DNA from: an uncultured Dehalococcoidales bacterium
GTDB lineage: Bacteria > Chloroflexota > Dehalococcoidia > GIF9 > UBA5629
Assembly (NCBI GenBank): GCA_964548415.1
Contig: CAZJQG010000001.1
Location: 13,680-77,679 of the forward strand
DNA: 64,000 bases
Reading direction: 5' to 3'
Made by a program: the position numbers and the translations under genes. The notes under the pieces are model-generated. The model saw only the letters and a program-made list of their open reading frames with translations, was not told the origin of the DNA and did no database searches. Positions 2,830-9,748 of this stretch are shown here, piece by piece (positions within the stretch are counted from its first letter, which is position 1; every line of letters begins with the position of its first letter).

Positions 2830-3805
2830 CTTTCTGGTTCCAACTTAAGGTAGTGGGTCAATTTGAATTTGACTGAATTTGAAATTTTTTCTGAACGTAT
2901 GTTTGCGGTAAGTACGCCGCAGTATCTTGGATGATTTCCCCAATACTCCAAACATGATCGGTAATTCCCGCCGCCATCGCTGGGGTTACGCCCAAGGTTT
3001 TATGTACCCTGGCAAAATTATAGAACATGAAATGCAACGCTACGGCGTGCTTTAAGTTATCTATTTTCTTTGAGAAGCCGTTGGTTAGCCTGGTGAATCG
3101 CCGCATAGCCATTCTCATAGTTAGGTTCTGTCTTTCAATGTAACTCGTAGATATTTGCGTGCGGTCAGGATTGCCCCTTATGACGTGGGTTTCAGTACCT
3201 AGACATTCCGATGGAGTATAACGCTTATCACCGCCGGGTTCTGCGCCATATAGCTTTATAAGCTGCGCGTAGTCTATTTCATCGCCGAACACATCATCTA
3301 CTGCGTCAAGATACATTCTATGACCGTCAGTAGTTAACTGAACTCTATTGATTAGCCTACGCCTTAAATCGGTTAAGAATTCAGTGGCAAAGCGTAGCGT
3401 TCTAAGGCCCACTAACCAGCAGGGCACTAACTTGATATCGGCATCCATAGCCACGTAAGTCCACACATCGCCATAACCTAGCTTGCCGCGTTTCCTGCGG
3501 GGTAAATGATCTTGCTTCGCATAGCAGAATGACCATATTTCATCGCACTGTAATCTAGTGCTTTTCAGGTTCTTTAGGTTCTTAAATTGGTACAGGTAAC
3601 ATGCTTTGCCTACATCTATTAGTAAGCGGGTAACTGTACCCTTAGCAACACCAGTCATCCGGCAGGTAGCCCGAATCGAATTACCCTCCACTAGAGCGGT
3701 AATTACTTGGGTTCTCTGCCTTAAACTTAACTGGTTCATACCTATATTATACTTGACCGCTCAAGCATTGTCAATAGGGAATAGGCTAATTTAAGAAAAT
3801 AATTG
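2830..3805 (-). mobile_element. IS1-family insertion sequence; ends are approximate and the inverted repeats are not resolved
   Basis: The transposase ORF starts 30 nt after the pilM/N stop. The flanks are AT-rich. I could not identify convincing terminal inverted repeats. Confidence 0.4.
2858..3739 (-). CDS. IS1-family DDE transposase (single fused InsA/InsB-type ORF)
   Basis: N-terminal HTH. DEIWSFCYAKQ matches IS1 InsB DEQWGYVGAKS. TDGHRMYLD matches TDGWPLYES. YIERQNLTMRMAMRRFTRLTNGFSKK matches [26 protein letters not shown]. Confidence 0.7.
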   Translation of the reverse strand: MNQLSLRQRTQVITALVEGNSIRATCRMTGVAKGTVTRLLIDVGKACYLYQFKNLKNLKSTRLQCDEIWSFCYAKQDHLPRRKRGKLGYGDVWTYVAMDADIKLVPCWLVGLRTLRFATEFLTDLRRRLINRVQLTTDGHRMYLDAVDDVFGDEIDYAQLIKLYGAEPGGDKRYTPSECLGTETHVIRGNPDRTQISTSYIERQNLTMRMAMRRFTRLTNGFSKKIDNLKHAVALHFMFYNFARVHKTLGVTPAMAAGITDHVWSIGEIIQDTAAYLPQTYVQKKFQIQSNSN

Positions 3806-3815
3806 TGATTATTAT

Positions 3816-4952
3816 TTATTGATCAGATTTATGTTTGTTCTTAATGATCTCTTCAGCTATTCTTATTGCTGCCCTACGCTCGTTCACGATAGAAGCTTTT
3901 CGAGAATTTGAGTTAAGGTATATATCGCGCACTTCTCCCTCAGTAAGGCATAGTAATTCTGCCAATTCTTTTGCTGTATATTTCATATCGGCTATGTAAG
4001 TTATGATAATTTCATTAAGTAGGTTGGGGGGTTCTTTCTGTAGGTCAACCTCGACCGGCTCACGTAATCTGTAGCCTGCCTTACTCATTTGGGTCCATAA
4101 ATTCCTTGCTTGCCTAGTGGTTATTTCGCTCAAATCCGATGCACGTTTCAGCAACGCAGCCATGGATACCTTCCAATATTGCTTCAAAGTGGCCAATTTT
4201 TCCAAAGATAAATCTCTGAGATACGGACGAATTTCGGACTCAGGCATCAGAAATTCGGAAGCAAATTCATCGGCCTGGCTTTCCATATTGGGATAGATAC
4301 TTTCCTGATGCATAATAATATGACCTACTTCATGACAAAGAGTAAAACGCAAACGGTCTGTAGGACTATATGTATTAACAAAAAAAAGGGGGGGCATATC
4401 AGATTGCCAATGACTCATTGCGTCTATCCTGTTAGTTCTGAAATCGAAGGGGATAACCAGGCCACGTTGACTTTCAATAACATCCACCAAGTTTTGTACT
4501 GGCCCCTTGGGTAATTGCCATCCCGCCCGGACGATACGTGCAATTTCCTTGGGTTTGTCATCAAAATCAGCCAGATCTATTTGCCTTATATTTACTTTGC
4601 CAATATTAACGCCACGAAGTAATTTCCGTATATTCATAGTTCTGATGCTGACTTGCGCATAAACAGCGTTCAATATTTTGTTAGGTATATTTTGCCGCTT
4701 GCGATTAAACATCTCACTAATACTTGGGCCGTACACTTTTTCGTCCTGAAAGAAAAAGGTCGGGGGGTAGCCCAATACCGTCGATAATTTCTTTAGGTCC
4801 GCATCATTAATACCACGCATCCCCCCCTCGACTCTGGAAAGCCATCCTTGTGATACAGACAATTTGTCCGCTAATTCTTGCTGAGTAACACCCCGTGATT
4901 CCCTTGCAAGAACTACCATTATTGAGTTTATTCTTTTATCCTTACGCGCCAT
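3816..4952 (-). CDS. fused XRE-family HTH / ImmA-IrrE (COG2856) zinc metallopeptidase regulator
   Basis: N-terminal HTH (RGVTQQELADKLSVSQGWLSRVE). HEXXH zinc motif HEVGHIIMH with a downstream E (EFASEFLMPE). Its start lies 2 nt after the stop of the upstream ORF. Confidence 0.75.
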   Translation of the reverse strand: MARKDKRINSIMVVLARESRGVTQQELADKLSVSQGWLSRVEGGMRGINDADLKKLSTVLGYPPTFFFQDEKVYGPSISEMFNRKRQNIPNKILNAVYAQVSIRTMNIRKLLRGVNIGKVNIRQIDLADFDDKPKEIARIVRAGWQLPKGPVQNLVDVIESQRGLVIPFDFRTNRIDAMSHWQSDMPPLFFVNTYSPTDRLRFTLCHEVGHIIMHQESIYPNMESQADEFASEFLMPESEIRPYLRDLSLEKLATLKQYWKVSMAALLKRASDLSEITTRQARNLWTQMSKAGYRLREPVEVDLQKEPPNLLNEIIITYIADMKYTAKELAELLCLTEGEVRDIYLNSNSRKASIVNERRAAIRIAEEIIKNKHKSDQ

Positions 4953-4954
4953 GC

Positions 4955-5542
4955 CTATTTATCAAGATCGTTCGTTTTTTCTTTCGGGTAAACACGCCTG
5001 CTTGGAGGATTAGAAGCTTCACTTATCTCGCCCGCACTGGAGACTTCCGGGGATTTCACCGCCGCTATTCTTAGTTCCCACTCATTATATTGCCCTCTGG
5101 GGCATATTATATATACGTCTTTAATAGCAGTCTGTAAGTCATTCCAAACGTACCCAGCAATAACATGCGTAACAGGTGAGGGCATATCTGGCAACTGGGC
5201 TTGCGTCTGATTCATTAACTGTACTATTCGCCTAGTTGGAATATTGCTTGGTCGAAGGCGATAATCCAGCTTCTTAAATCTCAGTTGGAACGAATCGCCA
5301 ATAAAAACGCTAAAAGTCTGGTGTCTACGGCTAAAAAGCAAACCAGGTAATCCTTCAAGTTCCGTGGCAGCGTTGAAGGCCATAAAATCATTAATGATAT
5401 TCGCCTTCGTTCTCTTCTTGAACTTAGACCTGGTTTGCGCATCCATCTTGTTATATTCCTCAATAGCACTGGCGATACAAGACTCGATCCGTTCTAAAAA
5501 CGGACTTAGTATGGCCCTGGCTTCCTCAAGAGTAATCATCAT
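4955..5542 (-). CDS. hypothetical protein co-transcribed upstream of the HTH-ImmA gene; candidate effector/toxin partner
   Basis: 195 aa with no recognisable motif. Good RBS (GGTGGAGG). A sigma70-like promoter and palindromic operator lie directly upstream. Confidence 0.5.
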   Translation of the reverse strand: MMITLEEARAILSPFLERIESCIASAIEEYNKMDAQTRSKFKKRTKANIINDFMAFNAATELEGLPGLLFSRRHQTFSVFIGDSFQLRFKKLDYRLRPSNIPTRRIVQLMNQTQAQLPDMPSPVTHVIAGYVWNDLQTAIKDVYIICPRGQYNEWELRIAAVKSPEVSSAGEISEASNPPSRRVYPKEKTNDLDK

Positions 5543-5561
5543 GCTTTACCTCCACCCTTAT

Positions 5562-5590
5562 AGTATACAATATTGTATGGCTCAAGTCAA
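5562..5590 (-). promoter_or_regulatory. sigma70-like promoter (TTGACT-17 nt-TATACT on the minus strand) overlapped by the 14-bp perfect palindrome ATACAATATTGTAT (5565-5578); candidate HTH operator
   Basis: Read directly from the sequence upstream of the 4955-5542 ORF. The palindrome overlaps the spacer and -10 element. Confidence 0.5.
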
Positions 5591-5644
5591 TGGCAAATAT
5601 GCCATATATTATGCCATTTCTAAGCTAAAAAAATATCGCTATTT

Positions 5645-5860
5645 CTACATCCATCTTTTTTGGGCTGCCCTCCTAGCAATTTCTTGGCGTTGCTCCGGGG
5701 TTAAACGTGCAGCCCTGGCCTTACCGCCCTTTAATCCACCCAGTCTACCAAGCGCAACAGCATGAGGATTCTTAGGGCGTTCTTCCGGTTCAGTAGTGGC
5801 CTGCTTAACAATGGAAGCAGCTAACTGGTTGGTATCTTTCTTACTTGACCGCTTAGGCAT
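5645..5860 (-). CDS. small basic protein with a KGG-type stress-protein motif (GGLKGGKARAARLTPEQRQEIARRAAQKRW)
   Basis: 71 aa. Recalled resemblance to KGG-repeat (YciG/GsiB-like) small proteins. TTGACA-17-CATACT promoter at 5867-5895 and no obvious SD, so possibly leaderless. Confidence 0.4.
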   Translation of the reverse strand: MPKRSSKKDTNQLAASIVKQATTEPEERPKNPHAVALGRLGGLKGGKARAARLTPEQRQEIARRAAQKRWM

Positions 5861-5918
5861 AGGTTAAGTATGCCATATTGTCTCTATGGTGTCAATCCAT
5901 CTCGTTGACAGGCTTATT

Positions 5919-5928
5919 CCCCCCCCCC
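5919..5928. repeat. C10 (G10) homopolymer in a divergent intergenic region
   Basis: Ten consecutive C residues. Placed in the spacer between a TTGACA box at 5905-5910 and an A-rich -10-like hexamer. Confidence 0.9.
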
Positions 5929-5981
5929 AAAATTTGAACGTTGTTTTCCTTAATTAGCTTCAAAGTGCCCATTGACGCCAA

Positions 5982-5990
5982 TGTTATAAT
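5982..5990 (+). promoter_or_regulatory. extended -10 promoter TGTTATAAT for the DUF3800 gene
   Basis: Perfect TGnTATAAT 22 nt upstream of ATG 6012. AGGAG RBS at 5999-6003. Confidence 0.5.
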
Positions 5991-6011
5991 TATCGTATAG
6001 GAGATAGAAAT

Positions 6012-6830
6012 ATGTTGGTTTTTATCGATCAAAGTGGCACTCCGCACCCGAATGATTCAGCTATACGGCCCGTATCGGTAGCCGTTTGTATGCAAGAAAG
6101 TGCATCCAGATCAATATCTGGCAGATTGCATACTCTAAAAAGGGAGTTGATTCGGCACGAAGCGCTAGAATTTAAGGCAAATCGCCTTCTTACAAGGGGC
6201 ACCTTCCGACGTTGTCCAGATAAAAGAGAACTTGTGGAGGCGTTCTTTGACTTGATAAGAAATCTTCCTATTACGGTTTTTGCAGTAATAATGGAACGGC
6301 CCATCTCTATTATACCCAAGACTACTCTTTTACCCAATCAATTTAGGTACTTATTACAGCGCTGTGATCTAGTATGTTCCGAATTACCGGAAATGACTAC
6401 AGTATTGTTTGATGGTGATTGTCGACAATGTGACAATTTGTCGCTGAAATTCAGTGCGTTTCTTTATAGGTCAAATGAGGGGCGTTCCATGACAACTATT
6501 ACAGATACGCCATTTTTTGTTGATTCACGGGTAACTGCGGGGATTCAAATGGCTGATATGGCTGCCGGTGTTATACGTATTTATGAAGAGCAACAATTAT
6601 TCCAGGGTGTGCCTTCTGGCGATTCATTTCTTTCTGCCATAAATAGATACTACAAAATATTAGAAGAGAGAACCAAGAATCAGACAAGTTCAGAGGGTTA
6701 CCCTAGAGCAGGGTTCTACCGTATGCCAGAACGAGACCATTATTACACTCTACCAACAGATCAGAACTCCACCGATATTGAAGCTGCCACTAGTAATGGA
6801 ACACCGCCTGTAAAACCAGAGAGCCAGTAG
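6012..6830 (+). CDS. DUF3800-family protein (variant with IDQSG instead of IDESG)
   Basis: N-terminal MLVFIDQSG and a central GIQMADMAAGVI, characteristic of DUF3800 (conserved DES and Q[IL]AD motifs). Confidence 0.55.
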   Translation: MLVFIDQSGTPHPNDSAIRPVSVAVCMQESASRSISGRLHTLKRELIRHEALEFKANRLLTRGTFRRCPDKRELVEAFFDLIRNLPITVFAVIMERPISIIPKTTLLPNQFRYLLQRCDLVCSELPEMTTVLFDGDCRQCDNLSLKFSAFLYRSNEGRSMTTITDTPFFVDSRVTAGIQMADMAAGVIRIYEEQQLFQGVPSGDSFLSAINRYYKILEERTKNQTSSEGYPRAGFYRMPERDHYYTLPTDQNSTDIEAATSNGTPPVKPESQ

Positions 6831-7097
6831 CAACACTCACAGAGTATTGCACCTGGCTCTTATGCTAAGAAGTATACCCTATAGATATTACTTTGTCAAG
6901 TGGTAAAAGGGTGTAGTAATATAGCATAGTACTAAAATACGTGTCAAGCCCCCCTTAACTTTATGTCCAAACTAGACCACTACCCAACTTAACATCGTTG
7001 CTCGAAATAACCCAGAACTTTATTCCAATTATTATGCTTAATATGGCTCAATGCCGGCAACTTCGACGATATTGACGATTCACCGAGTTAGAGAGGC

Positions 7098-7138
7098 CAT
7101 AAAAGAAGAAGGGGCATACCGTAGAGGTATGCCCCTTC
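7098..7138 (-). terminator. rho-independent terminator downstream of the pilin gene
   Basis: Perfect 12-bp stem gaaggggcatac / gtatgccccttc with a 7-nt loop. On the minus strand it is followed by CUUCUUUUAU. Confidence 0.55.
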
Positions 7139-7236
7139 ACCATTGTTTAATAATCTAGCTGCTAGGCGATCCGATCAAATCCGTTATACAACATTTTCAT
7201 AGTTCAAACCGACTCGTCGGATGCCAGCTACACTTG

Positions 7237-7593
7237 TTACGGGCCTCCTTGCGGAGTGCAATTAACGTCGGCAACCTGTGTAGCACAGTCTGGAACTACG
7301 ATACCATCGGTTCCGAAGGTCCAGGTCCACCTGGGGCTATCAAGCAAATACGTTCCCACCAGAGAAGGAACGTCAGCGGGCAACACTCCGTTGGCGTCTG
7401 CTTGCGCGGCTACTACCGCCGTCTGTACGTTGTGTCGCTCGGTCAAGCAGGCCTGACACGAACCTCTACCGATGAACTGACCCACCGCCAGGGTGACCAC
7501 CCCCGCCAGAGCTGCCAGGATACCGATTACCACCAGCAACTCGATGAGGGTGAAGCCTTTTTGACTTCGCATCGACTTCAATATCTTGTGCAT
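7237..7593 (-). CDS. type IV pilin-like protein (prepilin with N-terminal methylation motif)
   Basis: Leader MRSQKG then FTLIELLVVIGILAALAGV, the class III signal. Likely true start at 7572. Cys-rich C-terminus. AGGAGG RBS. Confidence 0.8.
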   Translation of the reverse strand: MHKILKSMRSQKGFTLIELLVVIGILAALAGVVTLAVGQFIGRGSCQACLTERHNVQTAVVAAQADANGVLPADVPSLVGTYLLDSPRWTWTFGTDGIVVPDCATQVADVNCTPQGGP

Positions 7594-8081: not shown

Positions 8082-8945
8082 ATGAACAATAGAAGCCTTG
8101 TTAAACAGATAATTAGTTTGGCTGAGACGCCTAATGAAGCTAATGGCCAAAAATATCCGTCTATCAGCTTAAGAGCGCTTTCCCAACTTGCACAGGAACA
8201 CGAAATGGAAGTCAGGGATGCCGAAATAATGTCCCTTAAAAACGGTGTCATACCCCGGCGCTATCTCCGCAATATTGGTTCATTTGGTATTGCGGGGCAG
8301 GTTAAGCTGTTGCAGTCATCGGTGGCTGTCGTCGGGGCCGGCGGGCTGGGCGGCACCATCATCGAACTGCTGGCCAGACAGGGTACGGGCCATATTATCG
8401 TCATCGATGATGACTGCTTTACAGAACAGAATTTAAACCGGCAACTCTTGTCTACGGAGAAAAATCTAGGCAAATATAAGGCTGAGGCGGCAGCCAGGAG
8501 AGTTAGGCATATAAATTCAGCAGTGGCACTGACAGTATTTATAGAAAAATTGAACGAGGAAAATGCCGATAGATTGCTTAACGGTGCACAGGTAGTGGCT
8601 GACGCACTTGATAACCTGCCGTCCCGTTTCACGCTTGAGAAAGCCTGCCGTTATCTGGGGATTCCACTGGTGCACGGGACAATTGCCGGCTTTTGCGGGC
8701 AATTAACCACGATTTTCCCTGAGGACGCCGGTTTCTGCTGCATTTACGGTTCTTCAAATGAATTGCCGGAACAGGGTATGGAAGTGCAAATCGGTAATCC
8801 CTCCTCCACGCCGGCGGTTGTGGCCGCCTGGCAGGTGCAAGAAATTGTGAAGATTATTACCGGCATAGGTACGCCGCTGCGTAATGCACTCCTGGTACTA
8901 GATATGATGGATGGGACGGTCGAAAGGATTAATATTAGCCAATGA
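8082..8945 (+). CDS. ThiF/MoeB/HesA-family E1-like adenylyltransferase
   Basis: Rossmann motif VAVVGAGGLGGTIIELLARQG...IIVIDDDCFTEQNLNRQ. Its stop overlaps the prepilin peptidase start by 4 nt. Confidence 0.7.
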   Translation: MNNRSLVKQIISLAETPNEANGQKYPSISLRALSQLAQEHEMEVRDAEIMSLKNGVIPRRYLRNIGSFGIAGQVKLLQSSVAVVGAGGLGGTIIELLARQGTGHIIVIDDDCFTEQNLNRQLLSTEKNLGKYKAEAAARRVRHINSAVALTVFIEKLNEENADRLLNGAQVVADALDNLPSRFTLEKACRYLGIPLVHGTIAGFCGQLTTIFPEDAGFCCIYGSSNELPEQGMEVQIGNPSSTPAVVAAWQVQEIVKIITGIGTPLRNALLVLDMMDGTVERINISQ

Positions 8946-9748
8946 CCATTTTATGGATGGTCTTGTTTTTCGTTGCGGGCTCCATGGTTGGGAGCTTCTT
9001 AAATGTGGTCGCCGATCGGCTGCCCCAAGGCAAATCTATTATTTGGCCGATGTCACATTGCACCGGTTGCCGGCGCCCCATTTCAGCAAGAGACAATATC
9101 CCAATAGTCAGCTATATCTGGCTTCGAGGTCGCTGCCGAAACTGTAATGCATCCATACCGCAACGTGTGCTGTGGGTGGAAATCAGTACCGCAATTTTAT
9201 TCGCTTTTGTTTACTGGCACTATAACTTCAGCTGGGAATTGCCGCTGGTACTATTATTTTGCTGTGTATTCATTGTATTGCTGCTTATCGACCTAGAGCA
9301 TGGAATACTGCCGAATAAGATAGTTTATCCATCGATGGTTATAGCGCTGGCGCTGGCCGGTGTGGGCTCCATCTTTGGATTTGAACCGGGATATATAATA
9401 TTCTTCGGCTTTCATTTGTGGATAATTAACGTTCTTGTCGGTGGTATCATCGGTTTCGTGCTGATGCTTGTCCCCGCCCTGCTTTATCGCCTTATAGGCC
9501 GTGCAGAAGGAATGGGTTGGGGAGATGTTAAACTGGCAGCACTTATCGGCTTTGTAACCGGCTTTCCGCTGGTTATATTGGCCACATTTCTGGCTGTTAT
9601 TATTGGTGGAATCACGGCCGCTATTTTGCTACTTCTCAAGGTTAGAGGGCGAAAAGACGCCATACCATTCGGCCCTTTTCTCTCCGTGGCCGCCATGGTG
9701 ACCTTGTTTTGGGGAAGCAGTCTCATCATTCGGCTATTCTTATACTAG
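8942..9748 (+). CDS. pilD: prepilin peptidase (A24 family, PilD-like)
   Basis: N-terminal tetra-Cys motif CTGC...CRNC. Multiple TM helices. GWGDVKLAALIGF catalytic Asp region. Confidence 0.85.
   Translation: MTILWMVLFFVAGSMVGSFLNVVADRLPQGKSIIWPMSHCTGCRRPISARDNIPIVSYIWLRGRCRNCNASIPQRVLWVEISTAILFAFVYWHYNFSWELPLVLLFCCVFIVLLLIDLEHGILPNKIVYPSMVIALALAGVGSIFGFEPGYIIFFGFHLWIINVLVGGIIGFVLMLVPALLYRLIGRAEGMGWGDVKLAALIGFVTGFPLVILATFLAVIIGGITAAILLLLKVRGRKDAIPFGPFLSVAAMVTLFWGSSLIIRLFLY

What the first reader, a model, noticed from the sequence alone, without database searches (positions are those of the whole stretch)
3816..5590. Candidate autoregulated toxin / ImmA-type protease module
An unknown 195-aa ORF (4955-5542) ends 2 nt before a 378-aa protein that fuses an XRE helix-turn-helix to an ImmA/IrrE zinc-peptidase domain (HEVGH). 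COG2856-Xre proteins are known partners of diverse toxins and, as the separate CapH and CapP proteins, regulators of anti-phage operons. The operon has a textbook promoter (TTGACT-17-TATACT) whose spacer and -10 are covered by the perfect palindrome ATACAATATTGTAT. That fits autorepression by the HTH, relieved by a stress-activated protease. I do not recognise the upstream protein as any known family, so it may be a new effector.
Basis: partly seen in the sequence, partly recalled or inferred. Interest (0 to 1): 0.7.

Follow-up and report, generated by a model that had tools for sequence, protein, structure and literature searches.

The report
Rosmer-type toxin–antitoxin module, unannotated toxin

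Summary
Every sequence fact in the finding is correct. The 378-aa protein is a full-length RmrA, the HTH + M78 zinc-peptidase antitoxin of RosmerTA (PADLOC E 2.6e-61).

The 195-aa protein matches nothing in Pfam, NCBIfam, PHROGs, PADLOC (RmrT models included) or PDB sequences. It is not an orphan, though. An exhaustive HMM search finds 1,276 cluster representatives, all about 200 aa. In all 20 distinct loci examined (Dehalococcoidia, proteobacterial plasmids, a viral contig) it sits directly upstream of an RmrA homologue on the same strand.

A confident AlphaFold model (pLDDT 91) resembles restriction-endonuclease folds only weakly, and the canonical acidic catalytic residues are not conserved.

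The palindrome is real but no rarer than chance, and close homologues lack it. What is conserved is two or more direct repeats at an 11–12 bp period, abutting the −35 (window: ATGGCATA ×2 plus an inverted half-site). The repeat sequence covaries with the RmrA recognition helix.

Verdict: a new toxin family in a known system. Toxicity, neutralisation and defence are inferred, not shown.

The parts
4955..5542 (-). Presumed toxin/effector 'T', 195 aa. It belongs to an unannotated family of about 200-aa proteins with a weakly restriction-endonuclease-like alpha/beta core and a disordered C-terminal tail carrying a conserved RRVxPK motif.
   Evidence: ORF. No Pfam, NCBIfam, PHROG, PADLOC or PDB-sequence match. 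Family size 1,276 representatives. Conserved residues D52, K90, T103, Q112, G130, Y131, C147, W155. AF2 pLDDT 91.1. Fold hits.
3816..4952 (-). RmrA-type antitoxin/regulator, 378 aa: N-terminal Xre HTH, M78 (ImmA/IrrE) zinc-peptidase and a C-terminal region.
   Evidence: PADLOC RmrA PDLC03949 E 2.6e-61 over residues 11-354. Pfam HTH_3 and Peptidase_M78. phrog_2439 E 1.1e-83. NCBIfam spr1629 antitoxin 108.6 bits, below its 335-bit cutoff.
4752..4907 (-). Xre-type HTH domain of RmrA (residues 16-67). The recognition helix reads VSQGWLSRVEGG.
   Evidence: Pfam HTH_3 E 3.5e-11. The helix sequence covaries with the upstream repeat sequence across loci.
4137..4445 (-). M78 peptidase domain of RmrA (residues 170-272). 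The zinc motif HEVGH is at nt 4334-4320.
   Evidence: Pfam Peptidase_M78 E 1.8e-17. PADLOC capP E 6.6e-19. PDB CapP 7t5t E 0.0019.
5562..5590 (-). Sigma-70-type promoter of the T-RmrA operon: TTGACT (5590-5585), 17 nt, TATACT (5567-5562).
   Evidence: A TTGACA-like -35 and TATA(C/A)T -10 recur at the same place in most homologous loci.
5590..5617 (-). Likely operator: direct repeats ATGGCATAA (5617-5609) and ATGGCATAT (5605-5597), 12-nt period, plus the inverted half-site TGCCAT (5595-5590) that overlaps the -35.
   Evidence: Exact TGGCATA-N5-TGGCATA occurs once in the window. Repeats sit at the same position at an 11-12 nt period in about 14 of 17 loci. Covaries with the RmrA recognition helix.
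5565..5578 (.). Perfect 14-nt palindrome ATACAATATTGTAT in the spacer and -10. It is probably incidental or at most specific to this lineage.
   Evidence: Seven such palindromes in the window against 4.5 expected. Absent from homologous promoters L002, L005, L009, L011 and L020.
5549..5557 (-). Shine-Dalgarno GGGTGGAGG, 6 nt upstream of the T start codon.
   Evidence: Read directly from the sequence.
5645..5860 (-). Small basic ORF (71 aa, motif GGLKGGKARAxxLTxEQRxEIAxxAAQKRW), apparently on a leaderless transcript. A frequent upstream neighbour, but not specific to this module.
   Evidence: Present upstream of T in 8 of 17 loci (plus L005). The family has at least 7,968 clusters and occurs in other contexts such as NYN, nSTAND and P63C genes.
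2830..7230 (.). Lower-GC island of about 4.4 kb (IS1-like transposase, RmrA, T, small ORF, DUF3800 gene) interrupting a type IV pilus gene cluster. The end coordinates are approximate.
   Evidence: GC 0.40-0.445 inside against 0.48-0.50 in the flanks. IS1-like and DUF3800 hits. PilM/PilN, pilin and prepilin peptidase on either side.

Best explanation
The region is a bicistronic RosmerTA-type toxin-antitoxin / abortive-infection module on a small, horizontally acquired island.

- **Transcription (inferred from consensus and conservation).** A sigma-70 promoter drives T (195 aa) and then RmrA (378 aa). Their reading frames are 2 nt apart, so translation is probably coupled.
- **T (inferred).** T is the growth-arresting effector. 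It is a soluble alpha/beta protein of about 22 kDa with a core that weakly resembles a restriction endonuclease, a conserved basic patch, and a disordered C-terminal tail ending in RRVxPK.
- **RmrA (inferred).** RmrA neutralises T. Through its Xre HTH it also represses the operon by binding the direct repeats ATGGCATA-N4-ATGGCATA-N3-TGCCAT, which abut and overlap the -35.
- **Trigger (inferred by analogy).** Phage infection or another stress is presumed to upset the balance and free T. This could happen through the M78 peptidase activity of RmrA or through loss of RmrA.

Shown here: domain identities, family size, conserved synteny, the conserved repeat architecture and its covariation with the HTH, and the mobile/defence context.

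Inferred only: toxicity, neutralisation, DNA binding, the trigger, and T's biochemical target.
For: 1. RmrA identity: 14 PADLOC RmrA models match at E 1e-32 to 1e-61 over nearly the whole protein.
2. Literature on the system type:
   - RosmerTA is a Zn-peptidase antitoxin plus a toxin of unknown function, and the rmrA deletion could not be transformed.
   - RmrA pairs with many unrelated RmrT toxins, and the toxin gene comes first in 58% of pairs.
   - RipA/RipB (spr1630/spr1629) is a validated Rosmer pair.
3. Synteny: T lies directly upstream of an RmrA homologue on the same strand in 20 of 20 distinct loci, down to 24-29% T identity. Spacing ranges from a short overlap to a 40-nt gap. The loci come from Dehalococcoidia, Rhizobium, Polaromonas and Roseicitreum plasmids, and a viral contig.
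4. Context:
   - A type II R-M system lies next to L012, and a PsyrT-like PRTase next to L011.
   - An integrase, a methyltransferase and a PDDEXK nuclease lie next to L016.
   - Phage lysis and tail genes surround L029.
   - In the window the module sits in a low-GC island with an IS1-like transposase.
5. Operator: repeats at the same position and period in about 14 of 17 loci. The repeat sequence tracks the recognition helix:
   - (S/T)QGWLSR with TGGCATA
   - S(P/S)GWLSR with GGGCAA
   - other helices with GGAATA or TGAATA.
Against: - No experiment bears on this family: toxicity, neutralisation and defence are all unproven.
- T matches no RmrT model, although the library holds them (positive control: E. 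coli RmrT PDLC03929, E 4.7e-24). A PADLOC search of T and its family finds RmrA but no RmrT match, so an HMM-based system caller that needs both is unlikely to report this locus.
- The canonical acidic residues are not conserved. R/K sits where the (D/E) of (D/E)xK would be, and D83 is D in only 46% of sequences.
- The helix-repeat covariation is confounded by phylogeny.
- Sites upstream of the -35 can also serve activators or act as UP elements.
- Only two of the related loci have clear defence neighbours.
Confidence: 0.65

Rival explanations
1. Regulator plus effector, not a true toxin-antitoxin pair. RmrA would be a fused CapH/CapP-like transcriptional switch that only represses the operon. 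Stress-activated self-cleavage would then derepress T, a single-protein defence effector, with no protein-level neutralisation.
For: The protease domain matches capP (E 6.6e-19) and the HTH matches capH (E 1.4e-5). CapP also appears among PDB hits. There is a conserved operator-like element at the promoter. NetFlax proposes HTH cleavage for Rosmer-like systems.
Against: RmrA is co-transcribed downstream of T with 2-nt spacing or overlaps. That fits stoichiometric co-production better than a separate regulator. CapH and CapP are separate proteins encoded beside multi-gene systems. In validated Rosmer pairs the antitoxin neutralises toxin expressed in trans from a foreign promoter.
Confidence: 0.17
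2. One reading: the 14-nt palindrome ATACAATATTGTAT in the spacer and -10 is the operator bound by the RmrA HTH.
For: It is a perfect palindrome placed ideally for repression by occlusion. Close homologues keep a loose ACA...TGT pattern in the spacer.
Against: Seven such palindromes occur in the window against 4.5 expected. The palindrome is absent in L002, L005, L009, L011 and L020, although their RmrA recognition helices are identical or nearly so. The conserved, covarying element lies upstream of the -35.
Confidence: 0.08
3. Immunity or regulatory module of a mobile element (ImmR/ImmA-like, fused). T would be a non-toxic accessory protein of that element, for example one that binds or processes DNA.
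For: phrog_2439 'transcriptional regulator' E 1.1e-83. One copy lies in a viral contig with four operator repeats, between replication and lysis/tail genes. Other copies are on plasmids next to an integrase.
Against: The pair travels as a self-contained two-gene unit in unrelated settings (chromosomal island, plasmids, phage), with no conserved partner genes of any one element. ImmR and ImmA are separate proteins.
Confidence: 0.07

Closest known systems
RosmerTA (RmrT/RmrA), Millman et al. 2022 (bioRxiv 10.1101/2022.05.11.491447); NetFlax ImmA hub D25 (PMC10440598)
   Same: The antitoxin is a full-length RmrA (HTH + M78 Zn-peptidase). A partner of about 200 aa and unknown function lies directly upstream in the same operon. 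The module occurs on phages, plasmids and islands.
   Different: The partner matches no RmrT model. HMMER finds no similarity to the E. coli RmrT (PDLC03929 type), with a score no better than shuffled sequences, and hhalign gives only E 0.04. There are no experimental data for this family.
RipA/RipB (Spr1630/Spr1629) of Streptococcus pneumoniae (PMC12795458)
   Same: A Rosmer-type pair with the toxin gene first. The antitoxin combines an Xre HTH with an ImmA-like protease. RmrA hits the NCBIfam spr1629 model (E 3.5e-31).
   Different: The score of 108.6 bits is far below the equivalog cutoff of 335. T has no NCBIfam hit. RipA targets the DnaN pocket, and for T this is only a hypothesis resting on a QLxLP-like loop.
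Gordonia phage Kita RmrT(D5)/RmrA (PMC10440598)
   Same: An RmrA-type antitoxin paired with a toxin that has no detectable family. Validated as toxin-antitoxin and anti-phage.
   Different: The Kita toxin is membrane-targeted, has a predicted transmembrane region and depolarises the membrane. T is predicted to be a soluble globular alpha/beta protein.
CapH/CapP regulators of CBASS and other defence operons; ImmR/ImmA of ICEBs1; DdrO/IrrE
   Same: The same two domain types, an Xre HTH repressor and an M78 metallopeptidase. The logic of protease-relieved repression may also be shared.
   Different: In those systems the two domains are separate proteins, and the protease cleaves the separate repressor. 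Here they are fused and lie downstream of a single effector gene.
EcoRV-like (beta-class) PD-(D/E)xK restriction endonucleases (EcoRV, NaeI, SfiI, BglI, HincII, SwaI)
   Same: They are the best and only consistent structural neighbours of the T model. The core order alpha-beta-beta-beta-alpha-beta is the same, with a conserved Lys in the third strand (K90).

Membership tests
RosmerTA | Antitoxin RmrA combines an Xre HTH with a Zn-peptidase (M78) carrying HExxH | tested here: met
   PADLOC RmrA E 2.6e-61 over residues 11-354. Pfam HTH_3 and Peptidase_M78. HEVGH at residues 207-211.
RosmerTA | A partner (toxin) gene adjacent and co-oriented in one operon | tested here: met
   2-nt gap in the window. 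T followed by RmrA in 20 of 20 distinct loci.
RosmerTA | The partner matches a described RmrT family | tested here: not met
   None of 103 family members hits a PADLOC RmrT model. The positive control, E. coli RmrT, hits PDLC03929 at E 4.7e-24. HMMER comparison with that RmrT is no better than shuffles.
RosmerTA | The partner is toxic and RmrA neutralises it | not testable with these tools
   Needs expression assays.
RosmerTA | The system confers anti-phage defence | not testable with these tools
   Only context is available: R-M and PsyrT-like neighbours, phage and plasmid carriage.
spr1629 (RipB) antitoxin equivalog, NCBIfam NF052239 | Score at or above the curated cutoff of 335 bits | tested here: not met
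   108.6 bits, E 3.5e-31. Related, but not an equivalog.
CapH/CapP | Separate HTH repressor and M78 protease genes flanking a defence operon such as CBASS | tested here: not met
   The domains are fused in one 378-aa protein downstream of a single gene. Only domain-level matches to capP and capH.
PD-(D/E)xK nuclease superfamily (for T) | Restriction-endonuclease-like alpha-beta-beta-beta-alpha-beta core | tested here: inconclusive
PD-(D/E)xK nuclease superfamily (for T) | Catalytic D ... (D/E)xK signature | tested here: not met
   The third strand reads R88-F89-K90 (R/K in 90% of sequences). D83 is D in only 46%. The only near-invariant acid is D52, in a helix. The residue mapping comes from sequence and secondary structure, not from coordinates.
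Beta-clamp-binding proteins (for T) | Clamp-binding motif QL[SD]LF or QLxLxL in an accessible segment | tested here: inconclusive
   The loop at 112-121 has consensus Q-x-Q-L-x-L-P-G-M-P. Of 103 members, 39 fit Q[LFIMV]x[LFIMV][PFLMIV] and 2 have QLSLF. The window protein has QAQLP. The loop is ordered in the model.

The most novel reading that the evidence does not exclude
The T family may be a catalytically divergent, restriction-endonuclease-fold toxin that poisons replication by docking its conserved Q-L-x-L-P loop into the hydrophobic pocket of the beta sliding clamp.

Two observations make this worth testing:
- The unrelated-in-sequence E. coli prophage RmrT carries a canonical QLSLF, conserved down to 63% identity.
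- The Rosmer toxin RipA is suppressed by DnaN pocket mutations.

If all three hold together, clamp targeting would be a recurring theme among Rosmer toxins. RmrA would recognise tandem direct repeats rather than a palindrome.
Probability: 0.15. Interest if true: 0.65.

Novelty: new member of a known kind. Interest (0 to 1): 0.4.

Why it matters
- **A gap in defence annotation.** No model in PADLOC 2.0.0 matches this toxin family, so a caller that needs both an RmrT and an RmrA match is unlikely to report these loci. The family has at least 1,276 clusters at 50% identity, spans Chloroflexota and Proteobacteria and also turns up on a viral contig. An HMM built from alignment A2 would recover these loci.
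- **An exact, testable operator.** The tandem direct repeats at a period of about one helical turn, which covary with the recognition helix, predict where an RmrA-type regulator binds. I found no described RmrA operator in the papers I read.
- **A possible link to the sliding clamp.** If the clamp-binding idea holds, it would connect three sequence-unrelated Rosmer toxins to one target.
- **Otherwise ordinary.** This is one more toxin-antitoxin module on a small mobile island.

Tried and rejected
1. **T as an orphan.** The word-indexed search found only 4 relatives, and a second search with a 103-sequence profile found only 6. The exhaustive HMM search overturned this with 1,276 representatives.
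2. **First structure model.** The model from 4 sequences was useless (pLDDT 46.6). It was redone with 103 sequences (pLDDT 91.1).
3. **The palindrome as operator.** Rejected because it is not beyond chance and not conserved.
4. **A third RmrA site in the small ORF's promoter.** The TGGCATACT there looked like one, which would have made a three-gene regulon. Rejected: the same TGGCATACT is the -10 of this small ORF in L036, which has no T-RmrA pair.
5. **The small ORF as an obligatory third component.** Rejected. It is present in only 8 of 17 loci, and its family of at least 7,968 clusters also occurs in unrelated contexts.
6. **Remote homology of T to the E. coli RmrT.** By eye the two share length, a D in a helix, an F-(K/T)-K strand, an RLRxxN segment, QLxL(F/P)G and a basic tail. 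Statistics do not support it: HMMER gives -1.8 bits, with 298 of 1,000 shuffles scoring as high, and hhalign gives E 0.04, probability 1.3%.
7. **NetFlax supplementary files.** They do not list the RefSeq accessions of the Rhizobium or Polaromonas pairs.
8. **Other features.** No Rfam family and no tRNA in or near the island. No T homologue in the phage genome collection by tblastn.
Full report
**1. Observation**

- ORF 4955-5542 (-) encodes 195 aa and ends in TAG. Two bases later the ATG at 4952 opens a 378-aa ORF, 3816-4952 (-).
- The 378-aa protein has an Xre-type HTH (Pfam HTH_3, residues 16-67, E 3.5e-11) and a Peptidase_M78/ImmA-IrrE domain (residues 170-272, E 1.8e-17). HEVGH is at residues 207-211.
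- Upstream of the 195-aa ORF lie TTGACT (5590-5585), 17 nt, TATACT (5567-5562), and a GGAGG Shine-Dalgarno 6 nt before the ATG.
- The perfect palindrome ATACAATATTGTAT occupies 5578-5565.

**2. The downstream gene is RmrA**

- The 378-aa protein matches 14 PADLOC RmrA models across almost its whole length. The best is PDLC03949, E 2.6e-61, residues 11-354.
- It also matches phrog_2439 (E 1.1e-83).
- It matches the NCBIfam spr1629 repressor/antitoxin model at 108.6 bits, below the 335-bit equivalog cutoff.
- RmrA is the antitoxin of RosmerTA, described as a Zn-peptidase antitoxin with a toxin of unknown function. The rmrA deletion could not be transformed (bioRxiv 10.1101/2022.05.11.491447).
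- NetFlax describes the ImmA/RmrA node as a hub paired with many unrelated toxins, with the toxin gene first in 58% of pairs. That study validated a Gordonia phage Kita pair (PMC10440598).
- S. pneumoniae RipA/RipB (Spr1630/Spr1629) is another validated Rosmer pair. Its toxin acts through the DnaN hydrophobic pocket (PMC12795458).

**3. The upstream gene belongs to a large unannotated family**

- The 195-aa protein (T) has no hit in Pfam, NCBIfam, PHROGs or PADLOC, and no PDB sequence relative.
- The word-indexed protein search found only four relatives, of which the three non-identical ones are about 70% identical.
- The exhaustive HMM search found 1,276 representatives at E ≤ 1e-3 and 449 at E ≤ 1e-10. 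Of the 150 best hits listed, all are single-stretch proteins of 151-251 aa, mostly about 200.
- A 103-sequence alignment (A2) shows these motifs: RTRASIInD, RFKKLD..LR..NIPTQQ, AGY..N, CPnG..N.W and a C-terminal RRVxPK.
- The near-invariant residues are D52, K90, T103, Q112, G130, Y131, C147 and W155.
- None of the 103 members hits any Pfam family or any PADLOC RmrT model.
- This negative result means something, because the library does hold RmrT models. The 216-aa partner of an E. coli prophage/plasmid RmrA hits RmrT PDLC03929 at E 4.7e-24.
- Named copies in public sources are all 'hypothetical protein'.

**4. Conserved pairing and context**

- I examined 20 distinct loci with sequence downstream of T. 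In every one, T is immediately followed on the same strand by an RmrA homologue.
- The spacing ranges from a short overlap (29 nt in called genes; longest-ORF coordinates give larger figures) to a 40-nt gap. It is 2 nt in the window and also in Polaromonas pH1NP1.
- The loci include three Dehalococcoidia MAGs, plasmids of Rhizobium leguminosarum, Polaromonas and Roseicitreum and an IMG/VR viral contig.
- In that viral contig the pair sits between replication/FtsK-like genes and endolysin/tail-fibre genes.
- Neighbours elsewhere:
  - a type II restriction enzyme (E 1.8e-93) with its methyltransferase;
  - a PsyrT-like phosphoribosyltransferase (E 3.1e-20);
  - in Polaromonas, an integrase, a DNA methyltransferase and a PDDEXK nuclease.
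- In the window the pair lies in a lower-GC stretch of about 4.4 kb (0.40-0.445 against 0.48-0.50). That stretch also carries an IS1-like transposase and a DUF3800 gene.
- The island interrupts a type IV pilus cluster: PilM/PilN at 1431-2828, pilin at 7237-7593 and prepilin peptidase at 8942-9748.
- Other HTH-M78 genes in the same kind of genome pair with unrelated partners of about 210 aa (L032). This fits the known promiscuity of RmrA.

**5. Structure of T**

- With four sequences the model was unusable (pLDDT 46.6). With alignment A2 it is confident: pLDDT 91.1, pTM 0.80.
- The model has two long N-terminal helices, then beta-beta-beta-alpha-beta-beta-beta, then a low-confidence tail from residue 162.
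- Every hit that aligns most of the domain is nevertheless a PD-(D/E)xK enzyme:
  - EcoRV (E 0.009, probability 0.85, TM 0.33-0.36), ThaI and HincII by Foldseek;
  - a PD-(D/E)XK protein as the best hit in BFVD (E 0.06).
- The order alpha-beta-beta-beta-alpha-beta matches that core.
- The catalytic signature is missing. The third strand reads R88-F89-K90, with R/K where the (D/E) of (D/E)xK would sit. The aspartate after strand 2 (D83) is D in only 46% of members.
- I could not inspect model coordinates, so this mapping rests on sequence and secondary structure.
- I conclude that T has a restriction-endonuclease-like core with a divergent or lost canonical active site. Nuclease activity is possible but not supported.

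**6. Regulation**

- The palindrome is not statistically special. The window holds seven 14-nt perfect palindromes, against 4.5 expected.
- It is absent from the promoters of the 70%-identical homologues and of more distant ones.
- What is conserved sits immediately upstream of, and overlapping, the -35. It is two or more direct repeats of an 8-10-nt unit at an 11-12-nt period.
- In the window these are ATGGCATAA (5617-5609) and ATGGCATAT (5605-5597), followed by the inverted half-site TGCCAT (5595-5590).
- Exact TGGCATA-N5-TGGCATA occurs once in the 64-kb window.
- Examples from other loci:
  - TTGGCATATTTT four times in the viral contig L029;
  - GGAATATTT twice in L026;
  - TCTAGAATA twice in L014;
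  - ATTGAATA twice in the Rhizobium plasmid.
- In about 14 of 17 loci the best 9-mer direct repeat in the 130 nt upstream of T falls at this position, with a spacing of 12 in most. Eight loci have a perfect 9/9 match, reached by at most 0.5% of shuffles.
- The repeat sequence tracks the RmrA recognition helix:

| Recognition helix | Repeat | Loci |
|---|---|---|
| (S/T)QGWLSR | TGGCATA | 7 |
| S(P/S)GWLSR | GGGCAA | 2 |
| SQGF, TQGA, KQAH | GGAATA | 3 |
| SQAT, SQAN, AQAV, SQAM | (C/T)(T/A)GAATA | 4 |

- This correlation is confounded by shared ancestry. It is still the pattern expected if the RmrA HTH binds the repeats.
- Autoregulation therefore remains the best reading, with a different operator from the one proposed.

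**7. Ideas tested and dropped**

- The small ORF at 5645-5860 (-) is 71 aa, has the motif GGLKGGKARA...RW, and appears to be on a leaderless transcript. It precedes T in 8 of 17 loci.
- It is not part of the module. Its family has at least 7,968 clusters and sits beside NYN, nSTAND, P63C and IS1-like genes elsewhere.
- Its TGGCATACT is simply its own -10 box. The same box is present in L036, which has no T-RmrA pair.
- By eye, T and the E. coli RmrT look alike. HMMER nevertheless scores the pair no better than shuffles, and hhalign gives E 0.04. Homology is not established.

**8. A speculative lead**

- The T loop between helix 104-110 and strand 125-133 has the consensus Q-x-Q-L-x-L-P-G-M-P.
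- Of 103 members, 39 fit Q[LFIMV]x[LFIMV][PFLMIV] and a few carry QLSLF or QLTLF.
- From my own knowledge, this resembles the beta-clamp-binding motifs QL[SD]LF and QLSLPL.
- The E. coli RmrT carries an exact QLSLF, conserved down to 63% identity.
- RipA toxicity is suppressed by mutations in the DnaN pocket.
- Against this, the loop is ordered in the model and the window protein has the weaker QAQLP. I give clamp targeting about 15%.

**9. Verdict**

- The locus is a RosmerTA-type module. RmrA membership is met. The partner is adjacent, co-oriented and strictly co-inherited.
- The partner belongs to a toxin family that no current model covers. Toxicity, neutralisation, the trigger and defence are inferred by analogy and untested.
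- Novelty: a new member (a new toxin family) of a known kind.
- Interest is moderate. The practical gains are an HMM-ready family that current defence-system models do not cover, and a precise, testable operator prediction.

Noticed in passing
window 5645-5860 (-); also L002 7662-7904, L005 1415-1657, L014 2-139, L025 623-880, L026 1321-1569, L036 3501-3740: A small basic protein of 71-89 aa with the motif NPxAVALGRLGGLKGGKARAxxLTxEQRxEIAxKAAxxRW. Its family has at least 7,968 clusters at 90% identity, all 'hypothetical' with no Pfam match, and the few taxonomically named hits are from Dehalococcoidia/Chloroflexi. The -10 box (TGGCATACT) lies only 6-7 nt before the ATG and there is no Shine-Dalgarno, so the transcript is probably leaderless. 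Its neighbours vary: NYN, nSTAND ATPase, P63C, IS1-like and Rosmer-like pairs.
   Followed up: partly
window 3728-3768 compared with 5822-5860: The promoter and start region of the IS1-like transposase gene (2858-3739, -) resembles the 5' end of the small ORF: ATGCTTGAGCGGTCAAGTATAAT... against ATGCCTAAGCGGTCAAGTAAGAAAG... This looks like a degenerate second copy of the small ORF's start. It hints at a link between this small-gene family and IS1-like elements, and an IS1-like gene also lies near the small ORF in L030.
   Followed up: no
window about 2830-7230: A lower-GC island (0.40-0.445 against 0.48-0.50) carrying an IS1-like transposase, RmrA, T, the small ORF and a DUF3800 gene (6012-6830, +). 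It splits a type IV pilus cluster: PilM/PilN fusion 1431-2828, pilin 7237-7593, prepilin peptidase 8942-9748. No flanking direct repeats or tRNA were found.
   Followed up: partly
L039 1119-1769 (E. coli plasmid NZ_AP026904.1) and 49 IMG/VR loci L041-L089: The canonical E. coli prophage RmrT (PADLOC PDLC03929) contains an exact beta-clamp-binding consensus, QLSLF, within EQLSLFG. It is conserved in variants down to 63% identity. I did not see this mentioned in the Rosmer papers I read. It is of interest because the Rosmer toxin RipA acts through the DnaN pocket.
   Followed up: partly
L029 about 4880-4935 (IMG/VR UViG_3300002852_000041): The phage-borne copy of the module has four tandem TTGGCATATTTT repeats upstream of its -35, where other loci have two. 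This suggests cooperative, multi-site binding of the regulator.
   Followed up: no
L011 5798-6984 (-) and L012 2639-4395 (-): Dehalococcoidia homologues of the module sit next to a PsyrT-like phosphoribosyltransferase with a weak ShosA-like partner, and next to a type II restriction-modification pair. These are small defence islands.
   Followed up: partly
window 5861-6011: Divergent, back-to-back promoter-like sites lie between the small ORF and the DUF3800 gene: TTGACA-17-CATACT on the minus strand (5895-5867) and TTGACA-17-CAAAAT on the plus strand (5905-5933).
   Followed up: no
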